Below, piece by piece: positions 14,818-64,000 of a stretch of 64,000 nt of DNA. The notes beneath the pieces are model-generated. The model did not search any database. It saw only the letters and a program-made list of their open reading frames with translations, and was not told the origin of the DNA. Both the position numbers and the translations under genes were made by a program. Every line of letters starts with the position of its first letter. Position 1 is the stretch's first letter. The DNA is from Actinomycetota bacterium (GTDB lineage: Bacteria; Actinomycetota; Acidimicrobiia; IMCC26256; PALSA-610), in assembly GCA_041691275.1 (NCBI GenBank), contig JBEPUZ010000001.1, positions 21,400 through 85,399 on the forward strand. The letters run 5' to 3'.

Positions 14818-15426
14818 TTATTCACCGGGACTGAGACCGGGACCGAGAAATCGTCGATCTCCCTGCACCGCCAGCCTCGTGTGACGCGGATTGACTCGGA
14901 CCGGGCCTAGCGACCCCAGGCCCAACGCGGCCTCCACCCGACCGCCGAAGTAGAGTAGCCACTGATTGAAAGGCGCGTGCGTCTTCTGGCCGTGGTGCTT
15001 GACTCGGGGCAGCCATACCTCGACGTCGGCCAGGGCTGCGGTTTTTGTCCAGTATCTGTTCCCTGTGCGCACGGGCACCAGAGCTGCGATCTCGTCACCG
15101 TCCTGTGTGGCCTTGGCTAGGAACAACTTGAACAACGGATCGCTATACGGGAAATTGCACCAGACGAGCCCGTGCCCGCTCCACCGGACCTGCAGCCCGT
15201 CCGCGAACACGGTGCGCTGCGCGAACGGGGCGACCGCCGGGTAGTATTCGGGCAGCATAATCGCGGTCGTCGACCGGACAATGCTCTTCGGATTGCTACA
15301 TGGATCGAGGCCGATCGGGCCGAGGACCCGTTCGATCGTGGAGAGGATGTACTCCGGCGTGAAGACCTTGTCGTTGGACTGGCCTTCACCGTTCGCGGAT
15401 CGGACGCGATTCTCTAGCTTGCCCAT
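14818..15426 (-). CDS. Phage N6-adenine DNA methyltransferase (Dam-like)
   Basis: FTP, LDPCS, DGL..W and VWCNFPY (NPPY-like) motifs. Confidence 0.75.
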   Translation of the reverse strand: MGKLENRVRSANGEGQSNDKVFTPEYILSTIERVLGPIGLDPCSNPKSIVRSTTAIMLPEYYPAVAPFAQRTVFADGLQVRWSGHGLVWCNFPYSDPLFKLFLAKATQDGDEIAALVPVRTGNRYWTKTAALADVEVWLPRVKHHGQKTHAPFNQWLLYFGGRVEAALGLGSLGPVRVNPRHTRLAVQGDRRFLGPGLSPGE

Positions 15427-19078: not shown

Positions 19079-20107
19079 TCAACGACCTGCGCGGAGATCG
19101 GCTTCGGTCTTGGCGCCGAGATGCGGCGCGGCCGGGCACCAGTAGTAGCCAGCGGCTCCGGGGTGTGCGACCCAGCCCGAGGGTGGGAACGCGGGGGTCT
19201 GCGGCGCGGCCTGAGGGAGCGGCGGGAGCCCCGGCGGCAGACCGGGCATGCCGCCCGGCGGGAGTCCCGGCATGCCGGGGAGGGACGGAAGCGACGGGAT
19301 CGTCGGCTGCGGGAAGGAGGGCTGTTGTGCCTGCATGCCCATCTGCGGCATGCCCGGGATCTGCGGCTGCATCTGGGTTGGGATCTGCGGCTGCATCTGG
19401 GGCATGAAGCCGCCCATCTGCGGGGCCTGCATCGGGGGAGCGGCCTGCGGCATCGGCGCGGTCGGGATCCCCATCGAGGGCATGAACCCGCCGGGCGCAG
19501 TCGGGGACCCGAACCCGCCGGGCGCAGTCGGGGCCTGGGCCTGCATCTGCGGCATGAAGCCGCCGGGCGCGTTCGGGATGGACGGGGCGCCACCCATCGG
19601 CGCGTGGCCCATCGGAGCTCCGGTCGGGGCCACCGACGCGTCGTTGATGCGCGACGCGAACGTCTTCGGCGTCGGGCCCCAGCGATGCACCATGAACAGG
19701 TTCTTCGTCTTCTGCGTGGTGATCTCCTGCGTGTCGCAGTGCAGGAAGCGGCCACGGATCAGCTGCCTCGAGTCGACGGTCGCATCGACGTGCGCCTCCG
19801 TCACCGACGCGCGCATCTGTGCTTCCTGCGTCTGCGGGTCGATCCCGAAGGCCGAGGCGACGAAGCACAGGATGTTGCCGGGGGTGTTCGGCTGCTTGAG
19901 ATCGGGCGCCCACGAGGGCCGATACCCGACCGGCGCCTCGTTCGGGTTGTTCGTCTCGTGCACGACGAACTCCGCGATGTACCGCGTGCCGGTGTGGCCG
20001 TTCAAGATCGAGCACTGCACGATCTCGAGGATGCCGCTGAAGTTGTCGGGCAGCTTGGGCCCCGACTGGCTGACGGATGCTTGCTGGATGTTACCGAAGA
20101 TTCCCAC
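19079..20107 (-). CDS. Putative ssDNA-binding protein with long Met/Pro/Gln/Gly low-complexity tail
   Basis: Beta-rich N-terminal ~155 aa between polymerase and helicase; AGGAGG RBS; function inferred from position. Confidence 0.5.
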   Translation of the reverse strand: MGIFGNIQQASVSQSGPKLPDNFSGILEIVQCSILNGHTGTRYIAEFVVHETNNPNEAPVGYRPSWAPDLKQPNTPGNILCFVASAFGIDPQTQEAQMRASVTEAHVDATVDSRQLIRGRFLHCDTQEITTQKTKNLFMVHRWGPTPKTFASRINDASVAPTGAPMGHAPMGGAPSIPNAPGGFMPQMQAQAPTAPGGFGSPTAPGGFMPSMGIPTAPMPQAAPPMQAPQMGGFMPQMQPQIPTQMQPQIPGMPQMGMQAQQPSFPQPTIPSLPSLPGMPGLPPGGMPGLPPGLPPLPQAAPQTPAFPPSGWVAHPGAAGYYWCPAAPHLGAKTEADLRAGR

Positions 20108-53922: not shown

Positions 53923-54495
53923 ATGGACGACAATCAGCTCGAGGCGATCACCGGAGTCCCGCGGCGCGTCATCATCGCGATCCGCATGGTCGAGTCGCGC
54001 GGGCACTGGGACGCGGTTCGCTTCGAGCCGCACATCTTCTGGAAGATCCACAAGGCCCTTCCGGTCGAGTGGTCCGGCAAGAAGATCCGCGAGCACCTCT
54101 CGCCCGAGGAGCTCGTGTCGGTGCCGTACACGCCCGGCCTGACCGGCGCCGCGTCGCACATCGCGGCCGAGACGAATCGAGCGGCGGTCGAGCGGGCGAT
54201 GTTGATCGACGCGAACGCGACCGTGCGCGCGACGTCGTGGGGCGCGTACCAAGATCTCGGCGCCGCGTTGCTCGCGGAGGTGCCCGGCGACCCGTCGACG
54301 GCGGTGAAGCGCTTCGATGCCGATCCGCGCGACATGAGCGGCAAGCTGTTCGCGCGCTGGGTGAAGGGCCGTCCGCACTTCGGCGCGATCGCGAGGTCTC
54401 TCGACTTCGATGCCTGCGCCCGCATTTATAATGGATGTACGGACTGCACGCTCTACTCGAGCCGCCTGCGCGCAGCCTACAACGCGGCGATCTGA
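53923..54495 (+). CDS. N-acetylmuramidase (DUF3380) endolysin
   Basis: VESRG, RFEPHIF, TSWGAYQ, ARIYNG. Confidence 0.85.
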   Translation: MDDNQLEAITGVPRRVIIAIRMVESRGHWDAVRFEPHIFWKIHKALPVEWSGKKIREHLSPEELVSVPYTPGLTGAASHIAAETNRAAVERAMLIDANATVRATSWGAYQDLGAALLAEVPGDPSTAVKRFDADPRDMSGKLFARWVKGRPHFGAIARSLDFDACARIYNGCTDCTLYSSRLRAAYNAAI

Positions 54496-55917: not shown

Positions 55918-56460
55918 ATGAAGGCGAAGAAGCGCACCTCGGCAGCGGGCGCCGGTCGATGCTTCGACGCCGTGGAGGTCGACGGGACGAAGGTGCGCGC
56001 GTGCCTGAAGACGAGCTCGGTGGAGCTCACGGCGCGTCGCGACGGCCGCAAGGTCGGGCACGCGTTCCTCGACACGCACAAGGGCGCTCTCGTCGTCGGT
56101 GAGATCGAAGTCTCGGAATGTGCACGCCGTAGCCGGGTCGGGACACGACTCTACGAAGCTGCGCTCGTGGTCGGGTGCCGCGCGGGTTTGCCTGTCACCT
56201 CGGATTCGATGCGATCGCAGTACGCGGAGGCGTTCTGGCGAAAGCAGGCGTCGAAAGGTCGCGCCGTGTGCGAGGCTGGACGTGGATCCGTCTACGAGGC
56301 ACCGACAGGCGGTATCCGTCGCGACATGCCGATACCGGGCGAAGATGATGCAGGAGATCCCGCGTGGGATTGTGCGCGCTACGTGGTCAGTGCCCCGTGC
56401 GGTGTGTCGTCGCTTGCAGGCACGAAAAAGCCCCCGACGCCGAAGCGTCGAGGGCGATAG
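55918..56460 (+). CDS. GNAT acetyltransferase, paralog of 50332-50748
   Basis: IEVSECARRSRVGTRLYEAA, AFWRKQASKGRA, basic tail. Confidence 0.7.
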   Translation: MKAKKRTSAAGAGRCFDAVEVDGTKVRACLKTSSVELTARRDGRKVGHAFLDTHKGALVVGEIEVSECARRSRVGTRLYEAALVVGCRAGLPVTSDSMRSQYAEAFWRKQASKGRAVCEAGRGSVYEAPTGGIRRDMPIPGEDDAGDPAWDCARYVVSAPCGVSSLAGTKKPPTPKRRGR

Positions 56461-56680
56461 GGATCTTGGTGCGACCGGCCTAGCGTTCGCAGTGCCTACA
56501 GAAGCCGTGGCGTCGTACCTCCTCGGCGCACGTCTCGCGTCGGATGGCGGTGAGATCGTGCGACTCGCTCGCCGTGATCCCCACGGAGTAGTGTTCGCGC
56601 TCGGGCGCGTACTTGCGGCGCGCTACCGGGCGCATCGCCGTAGATTGCGTACAGACAATCGACGCAAGTAGCCGAAATCA

Positions 56681-56781
56681 CCCCATGCACGCGCGCACGC
56701 GCCCGCACGCGCACCCGGGCGAATGCCCCATGCACGCGCGCGCGCACGCGCGCACGCGGGCGTATACGTGTACGCGCCCGC
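56681..56781. repeat. Alternating purine-pyrimidine tracts and hairpin
   Basis: Perfect RY runs 56684-56702, 56729-56758, 56760-56777; CCCCATGCACGCGCGC x2. Confidence 0.85.
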
Positions 56782-57014
56782 ACTCGAGCGCGCATCGCGC
56801 GAGCTGATGGTTCGCGAAATCATTGGCATTTTAACCATGTGAGCGATCTCACGAAAAGGCTTTGAATAAAAAGAGGGGGGTCCCGTCTAATAGGGGCGAA
56901 CGACGAAACGGGAAGATAGGGAATCGGAGAGAATCGACCGACCCTGAGAATATCCGGTAAGTCGGTGCGTATCAGTAAGCGGGCCTGCGAAGCCCTAGCT
57001 AGGGAGATTGAACC

Positions 57015-57383
57015 ATGACGACCACGAAGATCGCCCGCGAAGCCAACAAGGGCCCGGGTAAGTACGAAATCGCCCGCGAAGCCGTCAAGGGCCCGGGTAA
57101 GTACGAAAGCGAGCCCGCATGGGTCGCGTTCGCTTGGGAAGAGATCGTGCTGCACGGATGCGCACGCGAGGATCTCACGGATCCCGACGACGAAGAGAGG
57201 ACGATCTCCCTCGTGGATCTGGACGAAGAGATCCGCGCCGCGTTCCCCGACGCGCCCGAGCATGCCGCGCTGTATCAGCGCTCGGATGGTTTCGTGTGCC
57301 GCGCCGATTACGATGCGTGCATGCGCTTCGTGGCGGAATTGCGCTTCGTGGCGGAATCGGCGGAGACTTCCGAGGACGAGTGA
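57015..57383 (+). CDS. Acidic early protein
   Basis: GGGAG RBS in repeat; internal tandem duplications. Confidence 0.7.
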   Translation: MTTTKIAREANKGPGKYEIAREAVKGPGKYESEPAWVAFAWEEIVLHGCAREDLTDPDDEERTISLVDLDEEIRAAFPDAPEHAALYQRSDGFVCRADYDACMRFVAELRFVAESAETSEDE

Positions 57384-57574
57384 ATAAGGATCGAGTCTAG
57401 TACGTCGAATCGGTGCGAGGTCGTACGGGGCCTGGACGTCGTAGTCCGCTCGCATCATAGGGGCCCGCGAAGCCCTAGGGAGATCGTCATGAGCGAACAA
57501 CGGACTACGCCCATCGGACGGCCGGACGAAACCACCACCACCGCCACCGCCACCACCACCAAAGGACAGAGACC

Positions 57575-57988
57575 ATGACCACCAAGACCCTCACGATCAC
57601 CATGAGCGAGCGCCGCCCCGTCACGCTCGTCGCCGACGAATGGCCCGTCGTCGCACGCGCGGACTGGCACTCCGGCGAGCACAAGTCGCAGGCCAACGAG
57701 ACGGCGCACATCGTCGTACGCGAGCACGACGACGGTCGACGCATCGTCTACAGCGTCCGCGATCGTGGCGACGGGGGCATGCCCGCCGGGTACCGGGCCA
57801 CGGCCGGCGGCTACATGGTCGGCACCATCGCCGGCGACATGCGCCAGCCGTCGAGCGGGGGGCCGCTCACGTCGGCGCACCCGGACGAGGCCGAGACCAT
57901 CCGCGCCATCCGACGCGCGGGGGGCGTCGTGGGCATGGACCGCCTCGCCGACGAGTGCATCGCCGATCTGCCGGCTGAGTCGATCTGA
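57575..57988 (+). CDS. Hypothetical early protein
   Basis: AAGGA RBS; VREHDDGRRIVY motif. Confidence 0.7.
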   Translation: MTTKTLTITMSERRPVTLVADEWPVVARADWHSGEHKSQANETAHIVVREHDDGRRIVYSVRDRGDGGMPAGYRATAGGYMVGTIAGDMRQPSSGGPLTSAHPDEAETIRAIRRAGGVVGMDRLADECIADLPAESI

Positions 57989-58164
57989 CGCGCGCGCGCT
58001 CGTCGACGCCGTCTGACACCGCAGCACGCGGCCAGAGTCGCCTCGCTTGGTTTTCTTTTGAATAAGGATCGAGTCTAGTACGTCGAATCGGTGCGAGGCG
58101 GTAAGGGGCCTGGACGTCGTAGTCCGATCGCATCATAGGGCCCGCGAAGCCCTGGGAGGTGTCT

Positions 58165-58800
58165 ATGCAAGTGCCGAGCCTTTTGGACGATCGCGTCCTG
58201 CGTCACGTCGAGATCGACGGACGGTATCGTCTCCTGCTCTGGGATACGAATCGCCGCGACCGATACGGCAAATCGACGCTGGGGTACGCGTTCTCTCGCA
58301 TCGGCGAGAGTGAGCCGATCTTCTCGGCCGAGGATTACCACGTGCCGGGGTGCGTGGACGATGACGCCGCTGTACGCGGTTTGCTCGGATTCCTCACGCT
58401 TCGGGGGGGCGACACGGACTCCGATTACTTCGCGAACTACACGGAACGTCAATGGGCGTTTTCGCGCGGCGACGCGGAAGAGATCTCGTGCTGGGGTATG
58501 GACGAGCACGATCTAGAAGGGTCGTATCCGCTTGTCGACGTGGACGAGACGCCGGCGCCGCTCGCGCGCCTTGAGGGCTGGCACGACACGCAAACGGGCG
58601 GAGGTTGCACGGCATGGCAGATCGATCTACCGGGCGGCCGGTACGCGCTGATCACCGATGGCGACGCGAGCATCCCGACACACGAGGGCGATCTCGTGAT
58701 CGGCCTGTACAGCGACGAAGGCGATGCCATCGCCGATGAGTCGTGCTCTACCCTGGCCGAATGCCTCGCTTGGTTTTCTTTGAATAAGGATCGAGTCTAG
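58165..58800 (+). CDS. Hypothetical early protein, possible two-domain fusion
   Basis: GGAGG RBS; FLTLRGGDTD..YF and TGGGCTAW segments. Confidence 0.7.
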   Translation: MQVPSLLDDRVLRHVEIDGRYRLLLWDTNRRDRYGKSTLGYAFSRIGESEPIFSAEDYHVPGCVDDDAAVRGLLGFLTLRGGDTDSDYFANYTERQWAFSRGDAEEISCWGMDEHDLEGSYPLVDVDETPAPLARLEGWHDTQTGGGCTAWQIDLPGGRYALITDGDASIPTHEGDLVIGLYSDEGDAIADESCSTLAECLAWFSLNKDRV

Positions 58801-58888
58801 TACGTCGAATCGGTGCGAGGTCGTACGGGGCCTGGACGTCGTAGTCCGCTCGCATCATAGGGGCCCGCGAAGCCCCGGGAGATTGAGT

Positions 58889-59212
58889 ATGAGCGAACAA
58901 CGGACTACGCCCAAGGGCAAGATCGATATCATCCGTGATCAATGGGTGTGCGTCGATTGCCTGTTCGCGCTCGCGAATGGCGAGTATCCCGACGACGCGA
59001 CACGCGCGGCGGAGATCGAGGCGGGCGAGACGCGCGAGCTACCCTATCGCTGGGCGCTGGACGGGCCGCACGAAGGAGAGTCGGAGGAGGCGGATCAGGA
59101 TCCGTTTTCGTGGCGCCCTTGCGCGTGCTGCGGATCGCGTCTCGGCGGATCGAGGCACCGTGCGGCGTTGATCCTTGCTCTTGTCGAGTACAATCGATCG
59201 GTGAAGTCGTGA
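58889..59212 (+). CDS. Zn-binding early protein
   Basis: CVDC...FSWRPCACCGSRLGGSRH. Confidence 0.7.
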   Translation: MSEQRTTPKGKIDIIRDQWVCVDCLFALANGEYPDDATRAAEIEAGETRELPYRWALDGPHEGESEEADQDPFSWRPCACCGSRLGGSRHRAALILALVEYNRSVKS

Positions 59213-59430
59213 CCCCGGCCCGACGGCCGACCCGGTGGGGGTCCTCGCCGAATCTCGAGACGAGCCCGTCGATCAAGGGAGTGATCGCGGCGTTCTACTG
59301 CACGAAGCCCGAACGGATCACGCTCACGGCCGAGCCCGGCGGGTGGTCGATCAAGAACGGCGAGCGCGAGATCGACGGTACGTGGGTCCGGTTGATCAAG
59401 GGCCGGTACGTGCTCGAGAGTCGGTCGTGA
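59209..59430 (+). CDS. Hypothetical early protein
   Basis: GTGA coupling. Confidence 0.5.
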   Translation: MTPARRPTRWGSSPNLETSPSIKGVIAAFYCTKPERITLTAEPGGWSIKNGEREIDGTWVRLIKGRYVLESRS

Positions 59431-59526
59431 CCGAGCCCGGCGAGCACGGCTGGCTTCGCGACTCCAGAACGGGCGCGCTCGTGTCGTGCGACGGTCCCGA
59501 GATCGAGTGTTGATCGGGCCCCGAAC

Positions 59527-59838
59527 ATGATCAAGCAAATCCGATACTCGGAATGTGCCTACGCCGCGCCGAATGCGTGGGGCCTCGGCCAGATCCTGAA
59601 CAAGTACGACGCCGATCACGTTCACGTGATCTCGTATCCGGCGGACAACGATTGCGCGGCCGATGGCGTCGCCGTTGTGCTCGGGTTCCCGACGGCGCGC
59701 GAAGCTGAGATCGCGGCCGATGCCTACATCGCGAACCGCTACGGTAGGCTCGCGACGGTCCGGCACACATGGAGCCCGGTCTACACCGATCCCGCCCGCT
59801 GGCCGGAAGGTCGTCCGTTGCCGCCTGACGAACGTTGA
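59527..59838 (+). CDS. Hypothetical early protein
   Basis: Stop codon is the TGA of the repeat. Confidence 0.6.
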   Translation: MIKQIRYSECAYAAPNAWGLGQILNKYDADHVHVISYPADNDCAADGVAVVLGFPTAREAEIAADAYIANRYGRLATVRHTWSPVYTDPARWPEGRPLPPDER

Positions 59839-59877
59839 ATAACCGGACGCGCCTAGCGTCCTAGTAGCGAGGCTCCG

Positions 59878-60357
59878 ATGACCGAGCACTATTTCTTCTC
59901 GAAGCGGGCGCTCGACTCGAAGTCTCGCAGCGCCGACGACGCTGATCTTCCGTGGCTCAGGAAGCGCTTCCCGACGCACTTCCGCGTGACTGCGTTTCGC
60001 GCGCGGGAAGGCGTGCCGCGTGATCCCGGGCTCGAGCAGCACTTCGACACGGACGCGCGCGGGTTCAAGGCCGCGAAAGCGTACGCGGTCTCGCTCGTTT
60101 CAGACGGCACCGCGACGAACGCGGGCGTGGACGTCGAGGCGCAGTTCCCGTCGCACTTCTACGTTCGATATCGAAACATCGGTGGTTGGACCACTGTGAT
60201 CAGCAACGTGTTCGAGGCGGAAGCGGGTCCATCCGAGCGCGAACAAGCCGAAGAGGATCTCCGCACGGCTCGACGTACGGGCAACAACGACGCAGTCTGG
60301 GCACTCGAAAAGCGTATTCGTGTGCTCGGAGGTTGCCGCCTGACGAACGTTGAATAA
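59878..60357 (+). CDS. Hypothetical early protein
   Basis: GAGG RBS after repeat; stop codon is the TAA of the next repeat. Confidence 0.6.
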   Translation: MTEHYFFSKRALDSKSRSADDADLPWLRKRFPTHFRVTAFRAREGVPRDPGLEQHFDTDARGFKAAKAYAVSLVSDGTATNAGVDVEAQFPSHFYVRYRNIGGWTTVISNVFEAEAGPSEREQAEEDLRTARRTGNNDAVWALEKRIRVLGGCRLTNVE

Positions 60358-60727
60358 CCGGACGCGCCTAGCGTCCTAGTAGCGGGCCCGCGAAGCCCTA
60401 GGGAGATTGAACCATGACGCCGGGTAAGTACGAAAGCGAGCCGTCGTGCGAGTGCTACCGCTGTCACGTGGCGCGGGTGTCGACGTGACGCGCCGCGTGG
60501 CGCTGCGCTTGTCGTGGTGGGTCTACTCGGGCGGCGTGCCGATCTACGCGGTCGACACCCGCGCCGAAGCACGCACGCTCGCCGATGCGTGGCGCGCCGA
60601 TCTGCCCGGCGCCCGCGTCACCCTCAGCACCGCACGTCATCGGTCCGCCGACGACGCGATCGCCGCGCATGCGCGGGGCGAGGTCGCACCGTGACGCGGG
60701 CCCACGAAGCCCTAGGGAGATTGAACC

Positions 60728-61168
60728 ATGACGACCACGAAGATCAAGCCGCTCACGAAGAAACAGATCGCGGAGAACGAGAAACAGGAAGCGATCGCGA
60801 ACCTGAGGCGCGTCGCGCCCCCGGGCTCCACGATCTTCGGGATCGTGCGGAGCGTCGCACGTTCGGGCATGAGCCGGACGGTCGACTTCTACGTCAAGTC
60901 GGCGGATCCGGCCTATCGCGACGACGCGGGGCTGCGGTACCTCTCGGGATGGTTCGCGACGGCGGGCGGGTACTCGCGCGACAAGTCGGGCGCCCTGAAG
61001 ATCGGAGGGTGCGGGATGGATATGGTGTTCGGCACCGTCTACAACGTCGCATCGGCGACATGGCGCGGGACGAAGGTACCCGAGGCCGGCAAGCGAAACG
61101 GGAGGCGGCTGCGCGCCGATTCGCAGAATGACTCGCCCGGCTACGTGTGGAAATCGCGGGCGCTGTAG
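60728..61168 (+). CDS. Hypothetical early protein
   Basis: RSVARSGMSR and GCGMDM motifs; repeat RBS. Confidence 0.7.
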   Translation: MTTTKIKPLTKKQIAENEKQEAIANLRRVAPPGSTIFGIVRSVARSGMSRTVDFYVKSADPAYRDDAGLRYLSGWFATAGGYSRDKSGALKIGGCGMDMVFGTVYNVASATWRGTKVPEAGKRNGRRLRADSQNDSPGYVWKSRAL

Positions 61169-61249
61169 GATCGTAGCGCTGTAGGATCGTAGCGCCCGGC
61201 CAGGGACCGGAACGGGGGGCGGCACCCCGTGGGCGCTTGGGAGAATGTC

Positions 61250-61699
61250 ATGCGTGCAACCCTCGTTTCTGTGATCCTCGCCCTCTCGGGCTGCGCCGTC
61301 ACGATCGGCCCGTTGCCGGTCAGCGACTCGGGCCCGATGGGTGATGCGGCCCCCCAGGGCGACGCGGCGCCGACACCGGCCCGCGACACCGGCGCCGATG
61401 CGGGCCCGGCCCTACAGGGCGACGCGAGCCCGATCCCCGACGCGAGCTCGGCGCCCGACGCGGGCGACGTCCCGGCCGACTCCGGGGTCACGTGCGACGA
61501 CGTCTGGAGGGCCTACGCGGCGGCCGCGGCGCGCCTCGGGTGCACGCCGTACTTCGGCGGGTGCCCGATCGTGCGGAGCTACGACTACTGTTTGGCGCAC
61601 CTTCAGGCCGCCACGATGGCCGACGACGGCGGCACGGGCGGCGCGGCCTGTACGGCGCTCGCGTCTCTTGAGAGCGAGTGCTCGCGGGCGCAGCTGTGA
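61250..61699 (+). CDS. Myxobacterial-type lipoprotein
   Basis: Lipobox LALSGC, DSG/DAA/DTG/DAG linker, Cys-rich C-terminal domain. Confidence 0.7.
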   Translation: MRATLVSVILALSGCAVTIGPLPVSDSGPMGDAAPQGDAAPTPARDTGADAGPALQGDASPIPDASSAPDAGDVPADSGVTCDDVWRAYAAAAARLGCTPYFGGCPIVRSYDYCLAHLQAATMADDGGTGGAACTALASLESECSRAQL

Positions 61700-61747
61700 C
61701 GGCCCCCAAGGCCGCCGCGAGCGCGATAGGTAAGCACACAGGAGAAC

Positions 61748-61939
61748 GTGATGGCCAAGTACAACCGCCGCATCGGACACATCCACTTCAACGTGGGCAC
61801 CATTGGAGGGGGCGTGAACGCCTGCCCGTCCAACGCCCTGCTGTACAGCAAGTCCACGGCCCTAGTGACGTGCCCCAAGTGCCAGACCACCAAGGCCTAC
61901 AGGGCCAAGGTGGAGGCCGGTCTCCAGGGGCCGTCATGA
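61748..61939 (+). CDS. Small Zn-finger protein
   Basis: IH..AC..VTCPKC; AGGAG RBS. Confidence 0.55.
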   Translation: MMAKYNRRIGHIHFNVGTIGGGVNACPSNALLYSKSTALVTCPKCQTTKAYRAKVEAGLQGPS

Positions 61940-61973
61940 CCACCATGGCCAAGGACCTCGGGGCGGGGCGGTC

Positions 61974-62531
61974 ATGACCGAACGTGATGGATCTCGAACG
62001 CTGCGAGCGCCCACGGCAGTCACGCCGCGCGAGCGGAAGGGTCCGCGCGACCGCTTCACACACTCGATCCAAGCCGGGCACTACAAGCTGCGCGAGCACT
62101 TCATCGGCTCGAAGGTCGACCGGCGCACCACGGGGCCGGGCCTCTCGACGCCCGACGGGCTGAAGGAGGGCACGCGCCTCTCGATCATCGAGGCACCGTC
62201 GCTCCTGCGCGAGGGCAGCTCCGGCACAGTGCTGGAGCTTTGCGCCCCGTTCGCGCTCGGCTTGTCGAGCATCGCCTACGCGACGAAGCAGGCTGAGGGC
62301 ACCACGTGGTTCTCGTCCGTGCCCGACGACATCATCCGAATCTTCGACATGATGGAGCCGGACACGAGCGAGGAGACGTGGCTAGACCACACGCTCGGGC
62401 TCGGGAGGTATTCGAGGGGCTGCGGGCACGACGTGCTGCATCGTCTGCTCAAGACGGGCGTGCTGACGCGCGAGCAGATCGTCGAGGCGCGCGCGGCGAC
62501 ACGGCGGAGCTGCGCACGATGGAGCAGGTGA
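61974..62531 (+). CDS. Hypothetical protein
   Basis: 185 aa ORF in array direction. Confidence 0.5.
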   Translation: MTERDGSRTLRAPTAVTPRERKGPRDRFTHSIQAGHYKLREHFIGSKVDRRTTGPGLSTPDGLKEGTRLSIIEAPSLLREGSSGTVLELCAPFALGLSSIAYATKQAEGTTWFSSVPDDIIRIFDMMEPDTSEETWLDHTLGLGRYSRGCGHDVLHRLLKTGVLTREQIVEARAATRRSCARWSR

Positions 62532-62676
62532 ATCAGTGGGTGAGCACGCTCGCCCTCATGACGAGCCCGATGGCGCGCGCAGCGCCTCGGCGATGGCGCC
62601 ACGTCCGACGACATGTCGGGTGCGCGGGAGCAGGGCGAACCGGACGATCACAACGAACAGCGGACGAGGTCGAGCA

Positions 62677-63285
62677 ATGAGTACCAAGGCGGCAAAGCGC
62701 GAGAGCGCCCCGGTTCCGAACGAGCAGGGCCTCGCCCTGGGATCGATCGGATTTGGTTTCGTGCCCCACGAGTCAGAGGCGCACTTCACCGTTACGATCG
62801 GCGCGAGCGACATCGTGATCAGCGAGCACGCGCATTGGTCGGGAAGCTTGGACGACGACCTGGTCACGTTCGGCCCAAGCACTGACCACGTTGCGCGTGT
62901 CCGGCTCGATCGCCTGAGGTGGGACCGCATCGTGCTCGAGATGGAGCAGGAGCTTAACGGCCGACTCCGGAAGCGGGGTATCCCTGCTGCGAGATTCAAG
63001 GGCGCTCGGGTACCGATGGGCCGACTGTTTGGAAAAGAGGTCGTCCTCCTCGCGTGGGCCGTGGAAGACGCCGACCCCGCGCTCTGCTCGCACGCGGTCA
63101 CGAATTGGCTCGGACTGGCGCCCGAGGAACGATGGTGGCTATACACCATGACGGCGGCGGCGACAGGACATGCGACGCTTCATCGCGGCATCGGTTGGCG
63201 AAAGGCGCTCCATTTCGCTCTGACCGAAAACCCCGTGGCCGCGTTTCGAAGCGGGCGTGCGACGGTCCCGAGATCGAGTGAATAA
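62677..63285 (+). CDS. DUF3780 family protein
   Basis: IGFGF, FGKEVVLLAWAVED, NWLGLAPEERWWLYTMT, GWRKAL.FAL.ENP. Confidence 0.85.
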   Translation: MSTKAAKRESAPVPNEQGLALGSIGFGFVPHESEAHFTVTIGASDIVISEHAHWSGSLDDDLVTFGPSTDHVARVRLDRLRWDRIVLEMEQELNGRLRKRGIPAARFKGARVPMGRLFGKEVVLLAWAVEDADPALCSHAVTNWLGLAPEERWWLYTMTAAATGHATLHRGIGWRKALHFALTENPVAAFRSGRATVPRSSE

Positions 63286-63340
63286 CCGGACGCGTCGAGC
63301 GTCCTAGTGTCGGGCCCGCGAAGCCCGGGGAGAGAAGAGG

Positions 63341-63727
63341 ATGAGCAACCGTCAATATCAGGTCTACCGGACCACCACGTCAGGCGCGGTCGCGATCGAT
63401 AGCGCTCGACGAGGCGCGACGCTTGCTCGCGAGCGCGGATGGCGCGGTGTGGATCGGGTCGTTCAACGGCACTCGCGTCGTGTGCGTCGAGACGGAGTCG
63501 ATCTCGTGACCCCCGACACCAAGCCCGGCTTTTACTACGTCTCGGTCGTCGACGGCGCCCGCCGAGCGTTCGTCAAAGGCCCATACCCCGATCACGCGGC
63601 CGCGCTCGCGGCGGTCGACTCGGTCCGAATCGAGGCCGAGTCTCGAGATCCGCGCGCCGCGTTCTACGCGTTCGGCACGGCGCGTTGCGACGAGGAGATC
63701 GCGGCCGTGTTGGGGCGGCCGTCGTGA
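63341..63727 (+). CDS. Hypothetical early protein
   Basis: Repeat RBS; YYVSVVDG..GPY..H..AL..V..DPRA.FYAFGT in the C-terminal half. Confidence 0.6.
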   Translation: MSNRQYQVYRTTTSGAVAIDSARRGATLARERGWRGVDRVVQRHSRRVRRDGVDLVTPDTKPGFYYVSVVDGARRAFVKGPYPDHAAALAAVDSVRIEAESRDPRAAFYAFGTARCDEEIAAVLGRPS

Positions 63728-64000
63728 CCCGCGCCGCGACCGTCGACCCCTACAGCGGCCCGATGGCGCGCGCCGCGGAGGCCTTCCAGGCTCGCGACGT
63801 GGAGCGCCTTCGGGAGATCGAGGAGGCGTTGTGGCTCGCCGTCGAACGCTACAGCGAGGCCTATGCGGTCAACGGCAACGTGGCCGATCAAGCCATGTGC
63901 CGGGAGGCGAAGCGCTGCGCGGGGCACGTGATCAAACTGATCGCGCGGATGAATAAACCATCTACCGACTCCGTCTGATAGGCCGACCGAAACTAGTGAG

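What the first reader, a model, noticed from the sequence alone, without database searches (positions are those of the whole stretch)
56981..64000. Repeat-delimited early gene cassette array
Seen: short, mostly unrelated co-oriented genes flanked by modular repeats: TGAATAA (often providing the upstream TGA or TAA stop), a hairpin module in long or short form, then GGGCCCGCGAAGCCC plus RBS and ATG. A further TGAATAA occurs near 63950. Established analogue: PeSL promoter/stem-loop cassettes that shuffle genes in T4-type phages. Inference: a plug-in expression and recombination platform for host-takeover or anti-defence genes; one cargo is a defence-system component.
Basis: partly seen in the sequence, partly recalled or inferred. 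Interest (0 to 1): 0.85.

Follow-up and report, generated by a model that had tools for sequence, protein, structure and literature searches.

The report
Repeat-punctuated, shuffling early-gene array in phage
A novel high-GC phage separates its small early genes with copies of one intergenic module (stop codons in all frames, small hairpins, ribosome-binding site), and related phages carry different genes between the same modules, so the repeats look like plug-in points for gene swapping.

Summary
GGGCCCGCGAAGCCC occurs 7 times (0.95 expected) and TGAATAA 8 times on the + strand (0.48 expected for both strands of the window). All lie in intergenic spacers of one co-oriented array of small genes, window 56863 to the window end and on to the contig end. 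The contig (86,128 bp, probably circular) is an unclassified phage: DNA polymerase, primase, helicase, integrase and a muramidase closing the late block.

Each module supplies stops in all three frames, a variable spacer, a 4-5 bp hairpin and a strong SD 12-19 nt before ATG. Repeats run into the first codons and last codons of unrelated genes, which reads as recombination scars.

Cargo differs between relatives. A soil run holds about 99.9% identical late genes but lacks gene A, F-H and M-O, with one breakpoint inside the box. Three short contigs from another metagenome keep TGAATAA, box and SD around different genes.

No sigma-70-like promoter or + strand terminator lies in the repeats, so the PeSL analogy holds for shuffling, not for promoters. 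One cargo has DUF3780, a defence-associated domain; most others are ORFans.

Verdict: a new variant of a known kind (PeSL-like role, SAS/ESAS-like anatomy). RNA-level function is inferred only.

The parts
56839..56852 (.). 14-bp palindrome GTGAG-CGAT-CTCAC just upstream of the array; operator-like (inference)
   Evidence: sequence
56862..56891 (+). Only promoter-like arrangement in the region: TTGAAT-N18-TCTAAT. It overlaps the first TGAATAA. Weak: lacks A at -10 position 2, so the scan did not call it
56863..56995 (+). First module: TGAATAA, about 110 nt unique leader, box 1 (GGGCCTGCGAAGCCC, 56981-56995)
57015..57383 (+). Gene A, 122 aa, acidic (net -15), ORFan. Stop is the TGA of TGAATAA. 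Absent from run X2
57381..57475 (+). Long module copy 1 (95 nt) ending in box 2 (57461-57475)
57489..57988 (+). Leader mini-ORF B0 (29 aa; its first 8 codons are shared with gene D), overlapping by ATGA with gene B (57575-57988, 137 aa)
58040..58152 (+). Remnant of the 3' end of gene C (GCCTCGCTTGGTTTTCTTT) plus long module copy 2 with box 3 (58138-58152)
58165..58800 (+). Gene C, 211 aa, acidic (net -24). Reads through TGAATAA and stops at the module's TAG. Its C-terminal 74 aa are homologous (52%) to the N-terminus of a longer protein in L110
58781..58875 (+). Long module copy 3, 100% identical to copy 1, with box 4 (58861-58875)
58889..59838 (+). Genes D (phrog_3034), E and F coupled by GTGA overlaps, then G after a 13-nt spacer. 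G ends at the TGA of TGAATAA
59836..59877 (+). Short module without box: TGAATAA, CC, hairpin GGACGC-N5-GCGTCC, TAGTAGC, SD
59878..60357 (+). Gene H, 159 aa, ORFan. Its last 25 nt are identical to the end of G but read in another frame. Stop is the TAA of TGAATAA
60351..60398 (+). Short module with box 6 (60384-60398)
60414..60694 (+). Leader mini-ORF I (24 aa; contains the PGKYESEP piece also found in gene A), overlapping by GTGA with gene J (69 aa)
60698..60712 (+). Box 7 (GGGCCCACGAAGCCC), directly after the stop of J, no TGAATAA
60728..61168 (+). Gene K, 146 aa, phrog_12365. Its leader plus first 14 codons (the 55-mer) recur at the contig ends before another gene
61189..61236 (+). 48-nt intergenic element, identical in L044 and L114 except two positions that change together (G..C to A..T)
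61250..61699 (+). Gene L, 149 aa, lipoprotein-like N-terminus (LSGC; by eye)
61751..62531 (+). Genes M (62 aa, CxxC pair) and N (185 aa; paralogue of contig C1 590-1102). Little or no cover in run X2
62536..63285 (+). Gene O with DUF3780 domain. The script's gene call starts at ATG 62677 (202 aa); the family scans used the longer GTG ORF from 62536 (249 aa). Stop is the TAA of TGAATAA. Little or no cover in run X2
63279..63326 (+). Short module (hairpin loop GTCGA instead of GCCTA) with box 8 (63312-63326)
63341..63978 (+). Gene P (apparent frame change near 63400), Q (phrog_20105) and R, coupled by GTGA overlaps. TGAATAA at 63950-63956 lies inside R

Best explanation
This is the hyperplastic start of the early (non-structural) operon of a novel, probably temperate, high-GC phage. 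Unrelated small genes, alone or in groups of 2-4 translationally coupled genes, are separated by copies of a composite intercistronic module.

What the sequence shows each module supplies:
(i) translation stops in all three frames (TGA and TAA in TGAATAA, then TAG), so any upstream gene ends there whatever its frame;
(ii) a variable spacer with small hairpins;
(iii) a 4-5 bp hairpin box (GGGC-N7-GCCC) 12-19 nt before the start codon;
(iv) a strong SD, and sometimes the first codons or a 24-29 aa leader ORF that overlaps the cargo start by ATGA or GTGA.

Inferred function. The array is read as one long transcript from a promoter upstream of 56900. On that RNA the modules act as punctuation: a ready-made, context-independent translation start, and possibly processing and stability sites (an A/U-containing linker between two hairpins).

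Shown by comparison. Because the copies are near-identical, they are substrates for homologous recombination that deletes, duplicates and replaces the genes between them. The evolutionary role is therefore PeSL-like, but the modules are not shown to be promoters.
For: Repeats are real, strand-specific and confined to this region:
- Counts far above expectation, all on one strand.
- 9 of 62 intergenic spacers of at least 25 nt in the contig share them, and all 9 lie at window 56461-64684.

Anatomy:
- All 7 TGAATAA-led modules have stops in three frames, 6 of 7 within 29 nt.
- 5 upstream ORFs end in the module, using three different frames.
- The box ends 12-19 nt before ATG.
- Genes within a unit overlap by ATGA or GTGA.

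Internal mosaic scars:
- Shared first codons: MTTTKI three times, MSEQRTTP twice.
- Shared 3' ends read in different frames (G and H).
- A remnant of the end of gene C after gene B.
- A fragment of the start of gene G near the contig end.

Relatives:
- Run X2 (other study, soil) has 16 differing letters in about 12.0 kb of late genes. Its contig then leaves the reference at 56998, right after box 1 plus TAG, and continues with the 18 nt that follow box 2. That removes gene A.
- X2 joints run 58025 to 60445 and 61705 to 63208. Depth is near zero over A and low over F-H and N-O.
- L044, L110 and L114 carry the box 15 of 15 identical, while gene K is only 69% nt / 64% aa identical. They have (G)TGAATAA/G/T at gene ends and GGGGAGAGAAC before ATG.
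- L044 and L114 share both flanks of one slot but hold unrelated cargo, 130 versus 116 aa.
- In L110 the flank CGCGCTATC is followed either by the box or by a different palindrome, GGTCCAATGCGATGGACC; the SD that follows is GGGGAGAG and GTGGAGA respectively. This favours a hairpin over one fixed protein-binding sequence.

One transcript is compatible with the scans: no + strand terminator-like site and no sigma-70-like promoter in 56400-64000; a single weak TTGAAT-N18-TCTAAT sits upstream of the array.
Against: - No RNA data: no RNA run holds the sequence (see Tried and rejected).
- Folding energies of the modules and leaders are mostly not better than shuffles: z from -2.2 to +1.65.
- Covariation in the box is weak. 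The 4 core pairs never vary and only the flanking pair varies; 39 of 500 shuffles reach the covariation score.
- The promoter scan uses an E. coli-type consensus and the host is unknown. Host- or phage-specific promoters in the modules are not excluded.
- Cassette order in the contig rests on the original assembly across exact repeats of up to 95 nt. The public unitigs of the source run break at every module.
- Relatives are few: contigs of one other study, and three short contigs from one metagenome. Several X2 joints are marked 'between: not known'.
Confidence: 0.6

Rival explanations
1. True PeSL-type cassettes. Each module is an early promoter plus a terminator or attenuator, so every cargo unit is transcribed on its own.
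For: - Position from upstream stop to downstream ATG, co-orientation, and ORFan cargo that differs between close relatives all match the PeSL description (passages of PMC2839356 and PMC4122927).
- The PeSL stem-loops are also G-run/C-run hairpins, and T4 deletions at GGGC/GCCC repeats are mentioned there.
- The host's promoter consensus is unknown.
Against: - 0 sigma-70-like sites in 56400-64000 (0.8 expected by chance) and 0 terminator-like sites on the + strand.
- By eye, TTGAAT in the modules has no -10-like hexamer at 16-19 nt.
- The hairpins lack T-tracts.
Confidence: 0.2
2. The box is a double-stranded DNA site for a phage regulator, stoperator-like. It silences or times the early operon, for example in lysogens.
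For: - An asymmetric motif in one orientation, in short spacers next to stops and starts, in a phage with an integrase.
- Stoperators are cited as the contrasting case in PMC3203893.
Against: - Copies are confined to 7.8 kb of an 86-kb genome.
- In L110 a different palindrome replaces the box in the same flank within one contig. That fits a structure better than one protein's site.
- No candidate binding protein was identified.
Confidence: 0.08
3. The repeats are neutral scars of recent duplication and gene conversion, with no function of their own.
For: - The copies are very similar (87-100%).
- Mosaic patches extend into coding sequence.
Against: - The box is 15 of 15 identical, and TGAATAA and the SD are kept, in relatives whose shared gene is only 69% identical in DNA.
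- Position relative to stop and start is constant.
- Three-frame stops occur in both module forms.
Confidence: 0.07
4. An integron-like array: site-specific cassettes with attC-like sites moved by a dedicated integrase.
For: - Co-oriented, promoterless-looking small genes separated by repeats.
- GTTGAAT in 2 of 8 copies fits the GTTRRRY core (by eye).
- Integron elements have been reported in phages (search listing only, PMC9892861).
Against: - The only tyrosine recombinase is a generic Xer-like integrase about 19 kb away. It scores 29 bits against the integron-integrase model, whose cut-off is 265.
- The repeats are not long imperfect palindromes, and no inverse core was seen by eye.
Confidence: 0.02
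5. An assembly artefact: a chimeric consensus of a mixed phage population, joined at repeats.
For: - The contig crosses exact repeats of 55-95 nt.
- Unitigs of the source run break at each module.
Against: - Each cargo-plus-flank unitig of the source run matches the contig with 0 differences (records 1-8).
- The repeats themselves and their positions at gene borders do not depend on cassette order.
- The same design is seen in independent assemblies.
Confidence: 0.03

Closest known systems
PeSL (promoter-early stem-loop) cassettes of T4-type phages (PMC2839356, PMC4122927; passages read)
   Same: - Short conserved intergenic motifs from upstream stop to downstream ATG, dense in a hyperplastic region of small ORFans.
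- Close relatives differ by insertion, deletion or replacement of the genes between motifs.
- G/C-run hairpins.
   Different: - No sigma-70-like promoter and no terminator-like hairpin here.
- The modules carry three-frame stops, an SD and even first codons.
- The phage is unrelated, 67% GC, and has an integrase.
- Mini-circles are not shown.
SAS / ESAS (start-associated sequences) of Cluster K mycobacteriophages (PMC3203893; passages read)
   Same: - A GGG...CCC-framed short repeat just upstream of start codons.
- One orientation, only in the non-structural part of the genome, before genes of unrelated families.
- Some copies have inverted repeats upstream.
- Function proposed in translation initiation.
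   Different: - Different sequence.
- The box lies 12-19 nt before ATG and does not contain the SD; SAS lies 3-7 bp before the start and contains AGGAG.
- It is coupled here to a stop motif and to demonstrable cargo exchange.
RNase III processing sites between T7 early genes, bacterial REP hairpins, and the synthetic 'bicistronic design' (all recalled, no call)
   Same: - Intercistronic structured RNA that separates or stabilises cistrons.
- A leader mini-ORF overlapping the start of the cargo gives context-independent translation.
   Different: - Stems here are only 4-8 bp, too short for classical RNase III sites.
- The box is absent from the rest of the binned genome, unlike host REPs.
- No processing is shown.

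Membership tests
PeSL (T4-type) | Sigma-70-like early promoter (-35, N17, -10) inside each element | tested here: not met
   0 promoter-like sites in 56400-64000. Only one weak TTGAAT-N18-TCTAAT, upstream of the whole array.
PeSL (T4-type) | Stem-loop that terminates or attenuates transcription | tested here: inconclusive
   Small hairpins are present, but there is no terminator-like site on the + strand. Function not testable here.
PeSL (T4-type) | Flanks ORFans in a hyperplastic region; close relatives differ by the genes between elements | tested here: met
   X2 versus the contig. L044 versus L114 versus the contig. Most cargo have no family.
PeSL (T4-type) | Excised mini-circles formed by recombination between elements | not testable with these tools
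   Only contigs could be laid. No circular junction of good support was seen.
SAS/ESAS (Cluster K) | 13-bp consensus GGGATAGGAGCCC that contains the SD, 3-7 bp before the start codon | tested here: not met
   The box is GGGCCCGCGAAGCCC, ends 12-19 nt before ATG, and the SD is separate.
SAS/ESAS (Cluster K) | One orientation, restricted to the non-structural region, before unrelated genes | tested here: met
   7 of 7 boxes on the + strand. The repeats are in 9 of 62 spacers, all in the early array.
Integron cassette array | Integron integrase next to the array | tested here: not met
   TIGR02249 scores 29.1 bits against a cut-off of 265. The best models are generic XerC/XerD-like, below their cut-offs.
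Integron cassette array | attC sites with paired RYYYAAC / GTTRRRY cores in an imperfect palindrome | tested here: inconclusive
   By eye only: GTTGAAT in 2 of 8 copies, and no inverse core seen. No attC model was run.
DUF3780 (cargo O) | Pfam PF12635 above the gathering score | tested here: met
   127.5 bits against a cut-off of 27. PADLOC DUF3780 at 2e-33. NCBIfam 'DUF3780_antiphage' scores 126 bits, below its equivalog cut-off of 200.
DUF3780 (cargo O) | Sits in a Type-2 BREX-related locus with a DUF499 ATPase, a methyltransferase and a helicase (PMC12839542) | tested here: not met
   Its neighbours are small ORFans in the phage array. It is a lone copy, not a defence locus.

The most novel reading that the evidence does not exclude
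The modules are a dedicated plug-and-play system rather than passive homology. In this reading the GGGC-N7-GCCC hairpin (interchangeable with other small palindromes) is recognised by a phage factor: either a recombination or nuclease activity that excises and inserts cassettes, or an RNA-binding regulator that times the whole early set. The tRNA-like minihelices found in the same arrays, with canonical T-arms and in two independent phage lineages, would serve as RNase P/Z-type punctuation of the early polycistronic RNA, as in mitochondrial tRNA punctuation. Cargo would then move between co-infecting phages as ready-to-express units.
Probability: 0.12. Interest if true: 0.8.

Novelty: new variant of a known kind. 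Interest (0 to 1): 0.55.

Why it matters
How phages gain and lose small accessory genes at gene borders is an old question: linker sequences that guide recombination, or random joins followed by selection (recalled). PeSLs in T4-type phages are, as far as I recall, the main worked example of linker-guided exchange.

This array shows the same outcome in an unrelated, uncultured, high-GC phage, with a different kind of linker. The linker carries translation signals (three-frame stop, hairpin, SD, leader codons) rather than a recognisable promoter. Breakpoints are visible between phages that are otherwise about 99.9% identical.

It gives a defined and testable set of junctions. It also gives a short list of fast-turnover early genes as candidates for host-interaction or counter-defence functions: acidic proteins, a lipoprotein, and a lone DUF3780 protein.

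Tried and rejected
- **RNA evidence.** No RNA holder is listed for the array, so there is no evidence on expression, transcript starts or processing.
- **Known RNA families.** Rfam on 56400-64000, on L005 and on L044/L110/L114 gave only sub-threshold matches: malK-III 23.7 bits against a cut-off of 50, mascRNA-like 23.9 against 42.5, tRNA-Sec-like 24.9 against 47.
- **Named relatives.**
  - blastn of the array against 50,697 phage records: no match.
  - The DNA polymerase is at best 30.5% identical to an unclassified Caudoviricetes record.
  - Gene K has only 29-36% matches, in Gordonia, Caulobacter and other phages.
- **Viral contigs, 6 scans.**
  - Box plus SD: 1 single-copy hit inside a coding end, chance.
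  - DNA polymerase and the K alignment: none confirmed.
  - Intergenic element: 0 hits.
  - Alternative box: 1 hit inside a gene, chance.
  - Third box form: 0 hits.
- **Metagenome contigs.**
  - Muramidase as query: 56 pattern hits, none confirmed.
3 of 119 proved to be relatives.
- **Genome contigs.** Intergenic element: 9 stretches, 0 of 9 related.
- **Related genomes.** 0 of 40 hold the box.
- **Host link.** The tRNA-like pieces match no tRNA gene of the bin, and the contig shares no long segment with the other 411 contigs. The host therefore stays unknown and the bin assignment is unsupported.
- **Cargo function.** Atlas searches for C and N scored at most 0.80, which is uninformative. 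No structure was predicted.
- **Box covariation.** Weak.
- **Supplements.** None were requested. The PeSL lists, SAS figures S3-S4 and the DUF3780 supplementary data might refine the comparisons.

Full report
**Where the finding lies.** The window is G000:C1:21400-85399. Contig C1 is 86,128 bp, 67% GC, and its first and last 55 nt are identical. The same 55-mer also occurs once inside the contig, at window 60719.
- With a 55-mer assembly graph this leaves one unused in-edge and one unused out-edge. A circular or circularly permuted genome is therefore the simplest reading, but it is an inference.
- PHROGs finds a DNA polymerase, helicase, exonuclease, primase and a tyrosine integrase.
- Pfam finds a muramidase at 53923-54495, near the end of the + strand block that precedes the array.
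- Pfam finds a Dam-like methyltransferase, an HD protein, ThyX and DUF3310 in the + strand genes that follow the array after the contig wraps.
- The contig shares no long segment with the other 411 contigs of the bin, and no tRNA gene of the bin matches its tRNA-like pieces.
- I read it as a complete or nearly complete genome of an unclassified, probably temperate phage with an unknown host.
- It has no close named relative.

**The observation.** Counts are far above expectation.
- Box GGGCCCGCGAAGCCC: 7 copies with up to 2 mismatches, all on the + strand at 56981-63326. Expected 0.95; 0 of 100 shuffles reach 7.
- TGAATAA: 11 in the window, 8 of them on the + strand at 56863-63956. Expected 0.48.
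- In the whole bin the box occurs only here, apart from two one-mismatch hits. It is in 0 of 40 related genomes.
- A self-comparison of all 62 intergenic spacers of at least 25 nt in the contig shows the repeat family in 9 of them, all between window 56461 and 64684.

**Anatomy.** My gene calls rest on codon statistics trained on the contig's long ORFs. They give a run of co-oriented small genes A to R in the window, continuing to the contig end and beyond.
- Genes form units of one to four. Most neighbours within a unit overlap by ATGA or GTGA (F and G are separated by 13 nt). Units are separated by spacers.
- Spacers come as a 95-nt long module (57381, 58059, 58781; 87-100% identical) or a short module (59836, 60351, 63279). 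There is also a bare box (60698) and a first module with a unique 110-nt leader (56863-56995).
- All 7 TGAATAA-led modules have stop codons in all three frames: TGA at +0, TAA at +4, and TAG at +17 or +26. In 6 of 7 these fall within 29 nt.
- Upstream genes use them in different frames. A and G stop at TGA, H and O at TAA, and C reads through both and stops at the TAG.
- The box ends 12-19 nt before the ATG, with GGGAG or GGAGG in between.

**Hairpins.** Two hairpins recur in the centroid folds.
- GGACGC-N5-GCGTCC in the short module: same stem, loop GCCTA twice and GTCGA once.
- The box itself, GGGC-N7-GCCC.
- The long module as a whole does not fold better than shuffled sequence (z +0.3 to +0.8), and neither do most leaders.
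- In 10 box copies from four contigs the four core pairs never vary. The flanking pair is C-G, G-C, A-U or G-U in 6 of 9 distinct rows. Only 39 of 500 shuffles reach the observed covariation score, which is weak support.
- Better support for a structure comes from contig L110. There the flank CGCGCTATC is followed once by the box and once by a different palindrome, GGTCCAATGCGATGGACC; the SD that follows is GGGGAGAG and GTGGAGA respectively. A third stem-loop form (GAGGCTTCTGCGAGGCCTC) precedes the SD elsewhere.

**Scars inside the genome.** Repeats do not stop at gene borders.
- The leader and the first six codons (MTTTKI) are shared by A, K and the gene that spans the contig ends. K and that gene share 14 codons.
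- B0 and D share eight codons, MSEQRTTP.
- G and H share their last 25 nt, read in different frames.
- The last codons of C recur as a dead remnant after B.
- The end of O recurs at the end of F.
- A piece of the start of G lies in the last spacer.
- B0 (29 aa) and I (24 aa) are built from such pieces and overlap the start of the next gene. They work, by inference, as leader cistrons that pass ribosomes to cargo lacking its own module.

**Relatives 1: a near-identical phage.** Public runs X1 (sediment, probably the source), X2 and X3 (soil, another study) hold the sequence. Their contigs were laid on C1:66129-86128 (window position = locus position + 44729).
- X2 matches the late genes with 16 differing letters in about 12.0 kb (records 9-11).
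- Its contig leaves the reference at window 56998, which is box 1 plus TAG. It continues with GGAGATCGTCATGAGCGA, exactly the 18 nt that follow box 2 plus TAG at 57479-57496. Gene A and one long module are therefore missing, with the crossover inside the box.
- Summed depth in the bin over gene A is accounted for by the flanking contig alone.
- Further X2 joints link 58025 to 60445 (record 12, side 252) and 61705 to 63208 (record 14, side 221). Depth is low over F-H and N-O.
- B, C, L and parts of the rest are present at 97-99% identity.
- Some joints are marked 'between: not known', so replacement rather than deletion is possible.
- The unitigs of the source run X1 match each cargo unit with 0 differences and break at every module. 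The order of units in the contig thus rests on the original assembly.

**Relatives 2: a diverged lineage.** Comparison with the contig showed that 3 of 119 are relatives, all from one metagenome.
- L044: K homologue, 64% aa and 69% nt identical.
- L110: a protein whose N-terminus matches the C-terminal 74 aa of gene C at 52%.
- L114: the start of a 44.8-kb contig.
- All three have the box 15 of 15 identical, (G)TGAATAA, TGAATAG or TGAATAT at gene ends, and GGGGAGAGAAC before ATG.
- Gene order differs. L044 runs lipoprotein, K, a zinc-ribbon-like gene, the intergenic element, Y, Z, box, W. The contig runs J, box, K, intergenic element, lipoprotein L.
- L044 and L114 share the same 5' flank (intergenic element, hairpin, SD) and the same 3' flank (a short GTG-started ORF, TGAATAACCC..., box, MKILCTECGK...). 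Between them they hold unrelated genes of 130 and 116 aa. The short ORF is about 110 nt longer in L044, and the difference ends exactly at TGAATAA.
- This is cassette replacement between co-occurring variants.

**Promoters and terminators.** The scan found 0 sigma-70-like sites in 56400-64000 (0.8 expected by chance). It found 4 terminator-like sites, all on the - strand.
- By eye, the only promoter-like arrangement is TTGAAT-N18-TCTAAT at 56862-56891, next to a 14-bp palindrome.
- This fits one long early transcript. The host is unknown, however, and other promoter types are not covered.
- The linker between the two hairpins of a module (TAGTAGC, TAGTGTC, CATCATAG; GCTATC in L110) is the most A/U-rich single-stranded stretch in a GC-rich leader. 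A role as an endonuclease site is my inference only.

**Cargo.**
- Of the 10 largest proteins scanned against Pfam, PHROGs and PADLOC, one passes Pfam's threshold: O, DUF3780, 127.5 bits. PADLOC also lists O. D and K belong to PHROGs of unknown function.
- Of 10 further small proteins, one (Q) has a clear PHROG.
- NCBIfam adds only the DUF3780 'antiphage' model, below its equivalog cut-off.
- Passages of PMC12839542 describe standalone DUF3780 as a core gene of Type-2 BREX-related systems and propose a reader role. Here it stands alone among ORFans.
- A and C are strongly acidic. L starts like a lipoprotein. N has a paralogue 3 kb downstream.
- 'Anti-defence' remains a guess.

**Comparison with known systems.**
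- PeSLs are strong sigma-70-like promoters plus terminator stem-loops. They lie between stop and ATG in hyperplastic regions and recombine to shuffle ORFans and form mini-circles (passages). Role and setting match; the promoter feature was tested and not met.
- SASs are 13-bp GGG...CCC-framed repeats 3-7 bp before starts, in one orientation, in the non-structural half, some with upstream inverted repeats, and thought to act in translation (passages). The anatomy is similar. Sequence, distance and the separate SD differ.
- An integron reading fails on the integrase.
- I therefore file this as a new variant of a known kind, not as a member of either family.

Noticed in passing
just past the window end: L010 19274-19313 (C1 85402-85441), L010 about 19802-19832 (C1 about 85930-85960); L110 about 1588-1640: Three tRNA-like minihelices with canonical T-arms (GGTTCGAWTCC loops) and acceptor-like stems sit in intergenic spacers of the arrays, in two phage lineages. 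ARAGORN calls no tRNA. Rfam gives only sub-threshold mascRNA-like (23.9 bits) and tRNA-Sec-like (24.9 bits) matches. They could be processing signals, pseudo-tRNAs or att-like pieces.
   Followed up: partly
window 61189-61236; L044 1361-1408; L114 about 348-395: A 48-nt intergenic element is identical in three contigs except two positions that change together (G..C to A..T). The flanking genes are unrelated or 69% identical. It matches no Rfam family.
   Followed up: partly
window 56681-56793: Direct repeats of CCCCATGCACGCGCGCACGCGC-type units lie in the 554-nt spacer between the late block and the array. Run X2 differs here by several small indels.
   Followed up: no
window 56839-56891: A 14-bp palindrome lies next to the only promoter-like arrangement (TTGAAT-N18-TCTAAT). 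This is a candidate operator and early promoter for the whole array.
   Followed up: partly
window 63341-63509: Gene P seems to change frame near 63400. MSNRQYQVYRTTTSGAVAIDS... continues plausibly in another frame as ...LDEARRLLASADGAVWIGSFNGTRVVCVETESIS. This could be an assembly error, a pseudogene or a programmed shift.
   Followed up: no
window 61974-62531 and C1 590-1102 (L011): Gene N has a paralogue about 3 kb downstream in the early region. Shared motifs include FxGSKVDRRxTG and DTSxxTWLD.
   Followed up: no
window 57030-57107, 57327-57362 and 61160-61191: Short tandem duplications: a 39-nt unit twice and an 18-nt unit twice inside gene A, and a 16-nt unit twice right after the stop of K.
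   Followed up: no
window 14818-14824 (- strand): One of the three - strand TGAATAA copies also supplies the stop (TAA) of a gene (14818-15426), followed by a 43-nt spacer. No box is present.
   Followed up: no
C1 1-55, 82118-82172, 86074-86128: The 55-mer at both contig ends is also the leader and first codons of gene K. Circular closure is therefore likely but passes through a three-copy repeat.
   Followed up: partly
window 56940-56952 and L110 5-17: A motif GACCCTGAGAWA is shared by the first leader of the array and the first spacer of L110.
   Followed up: no
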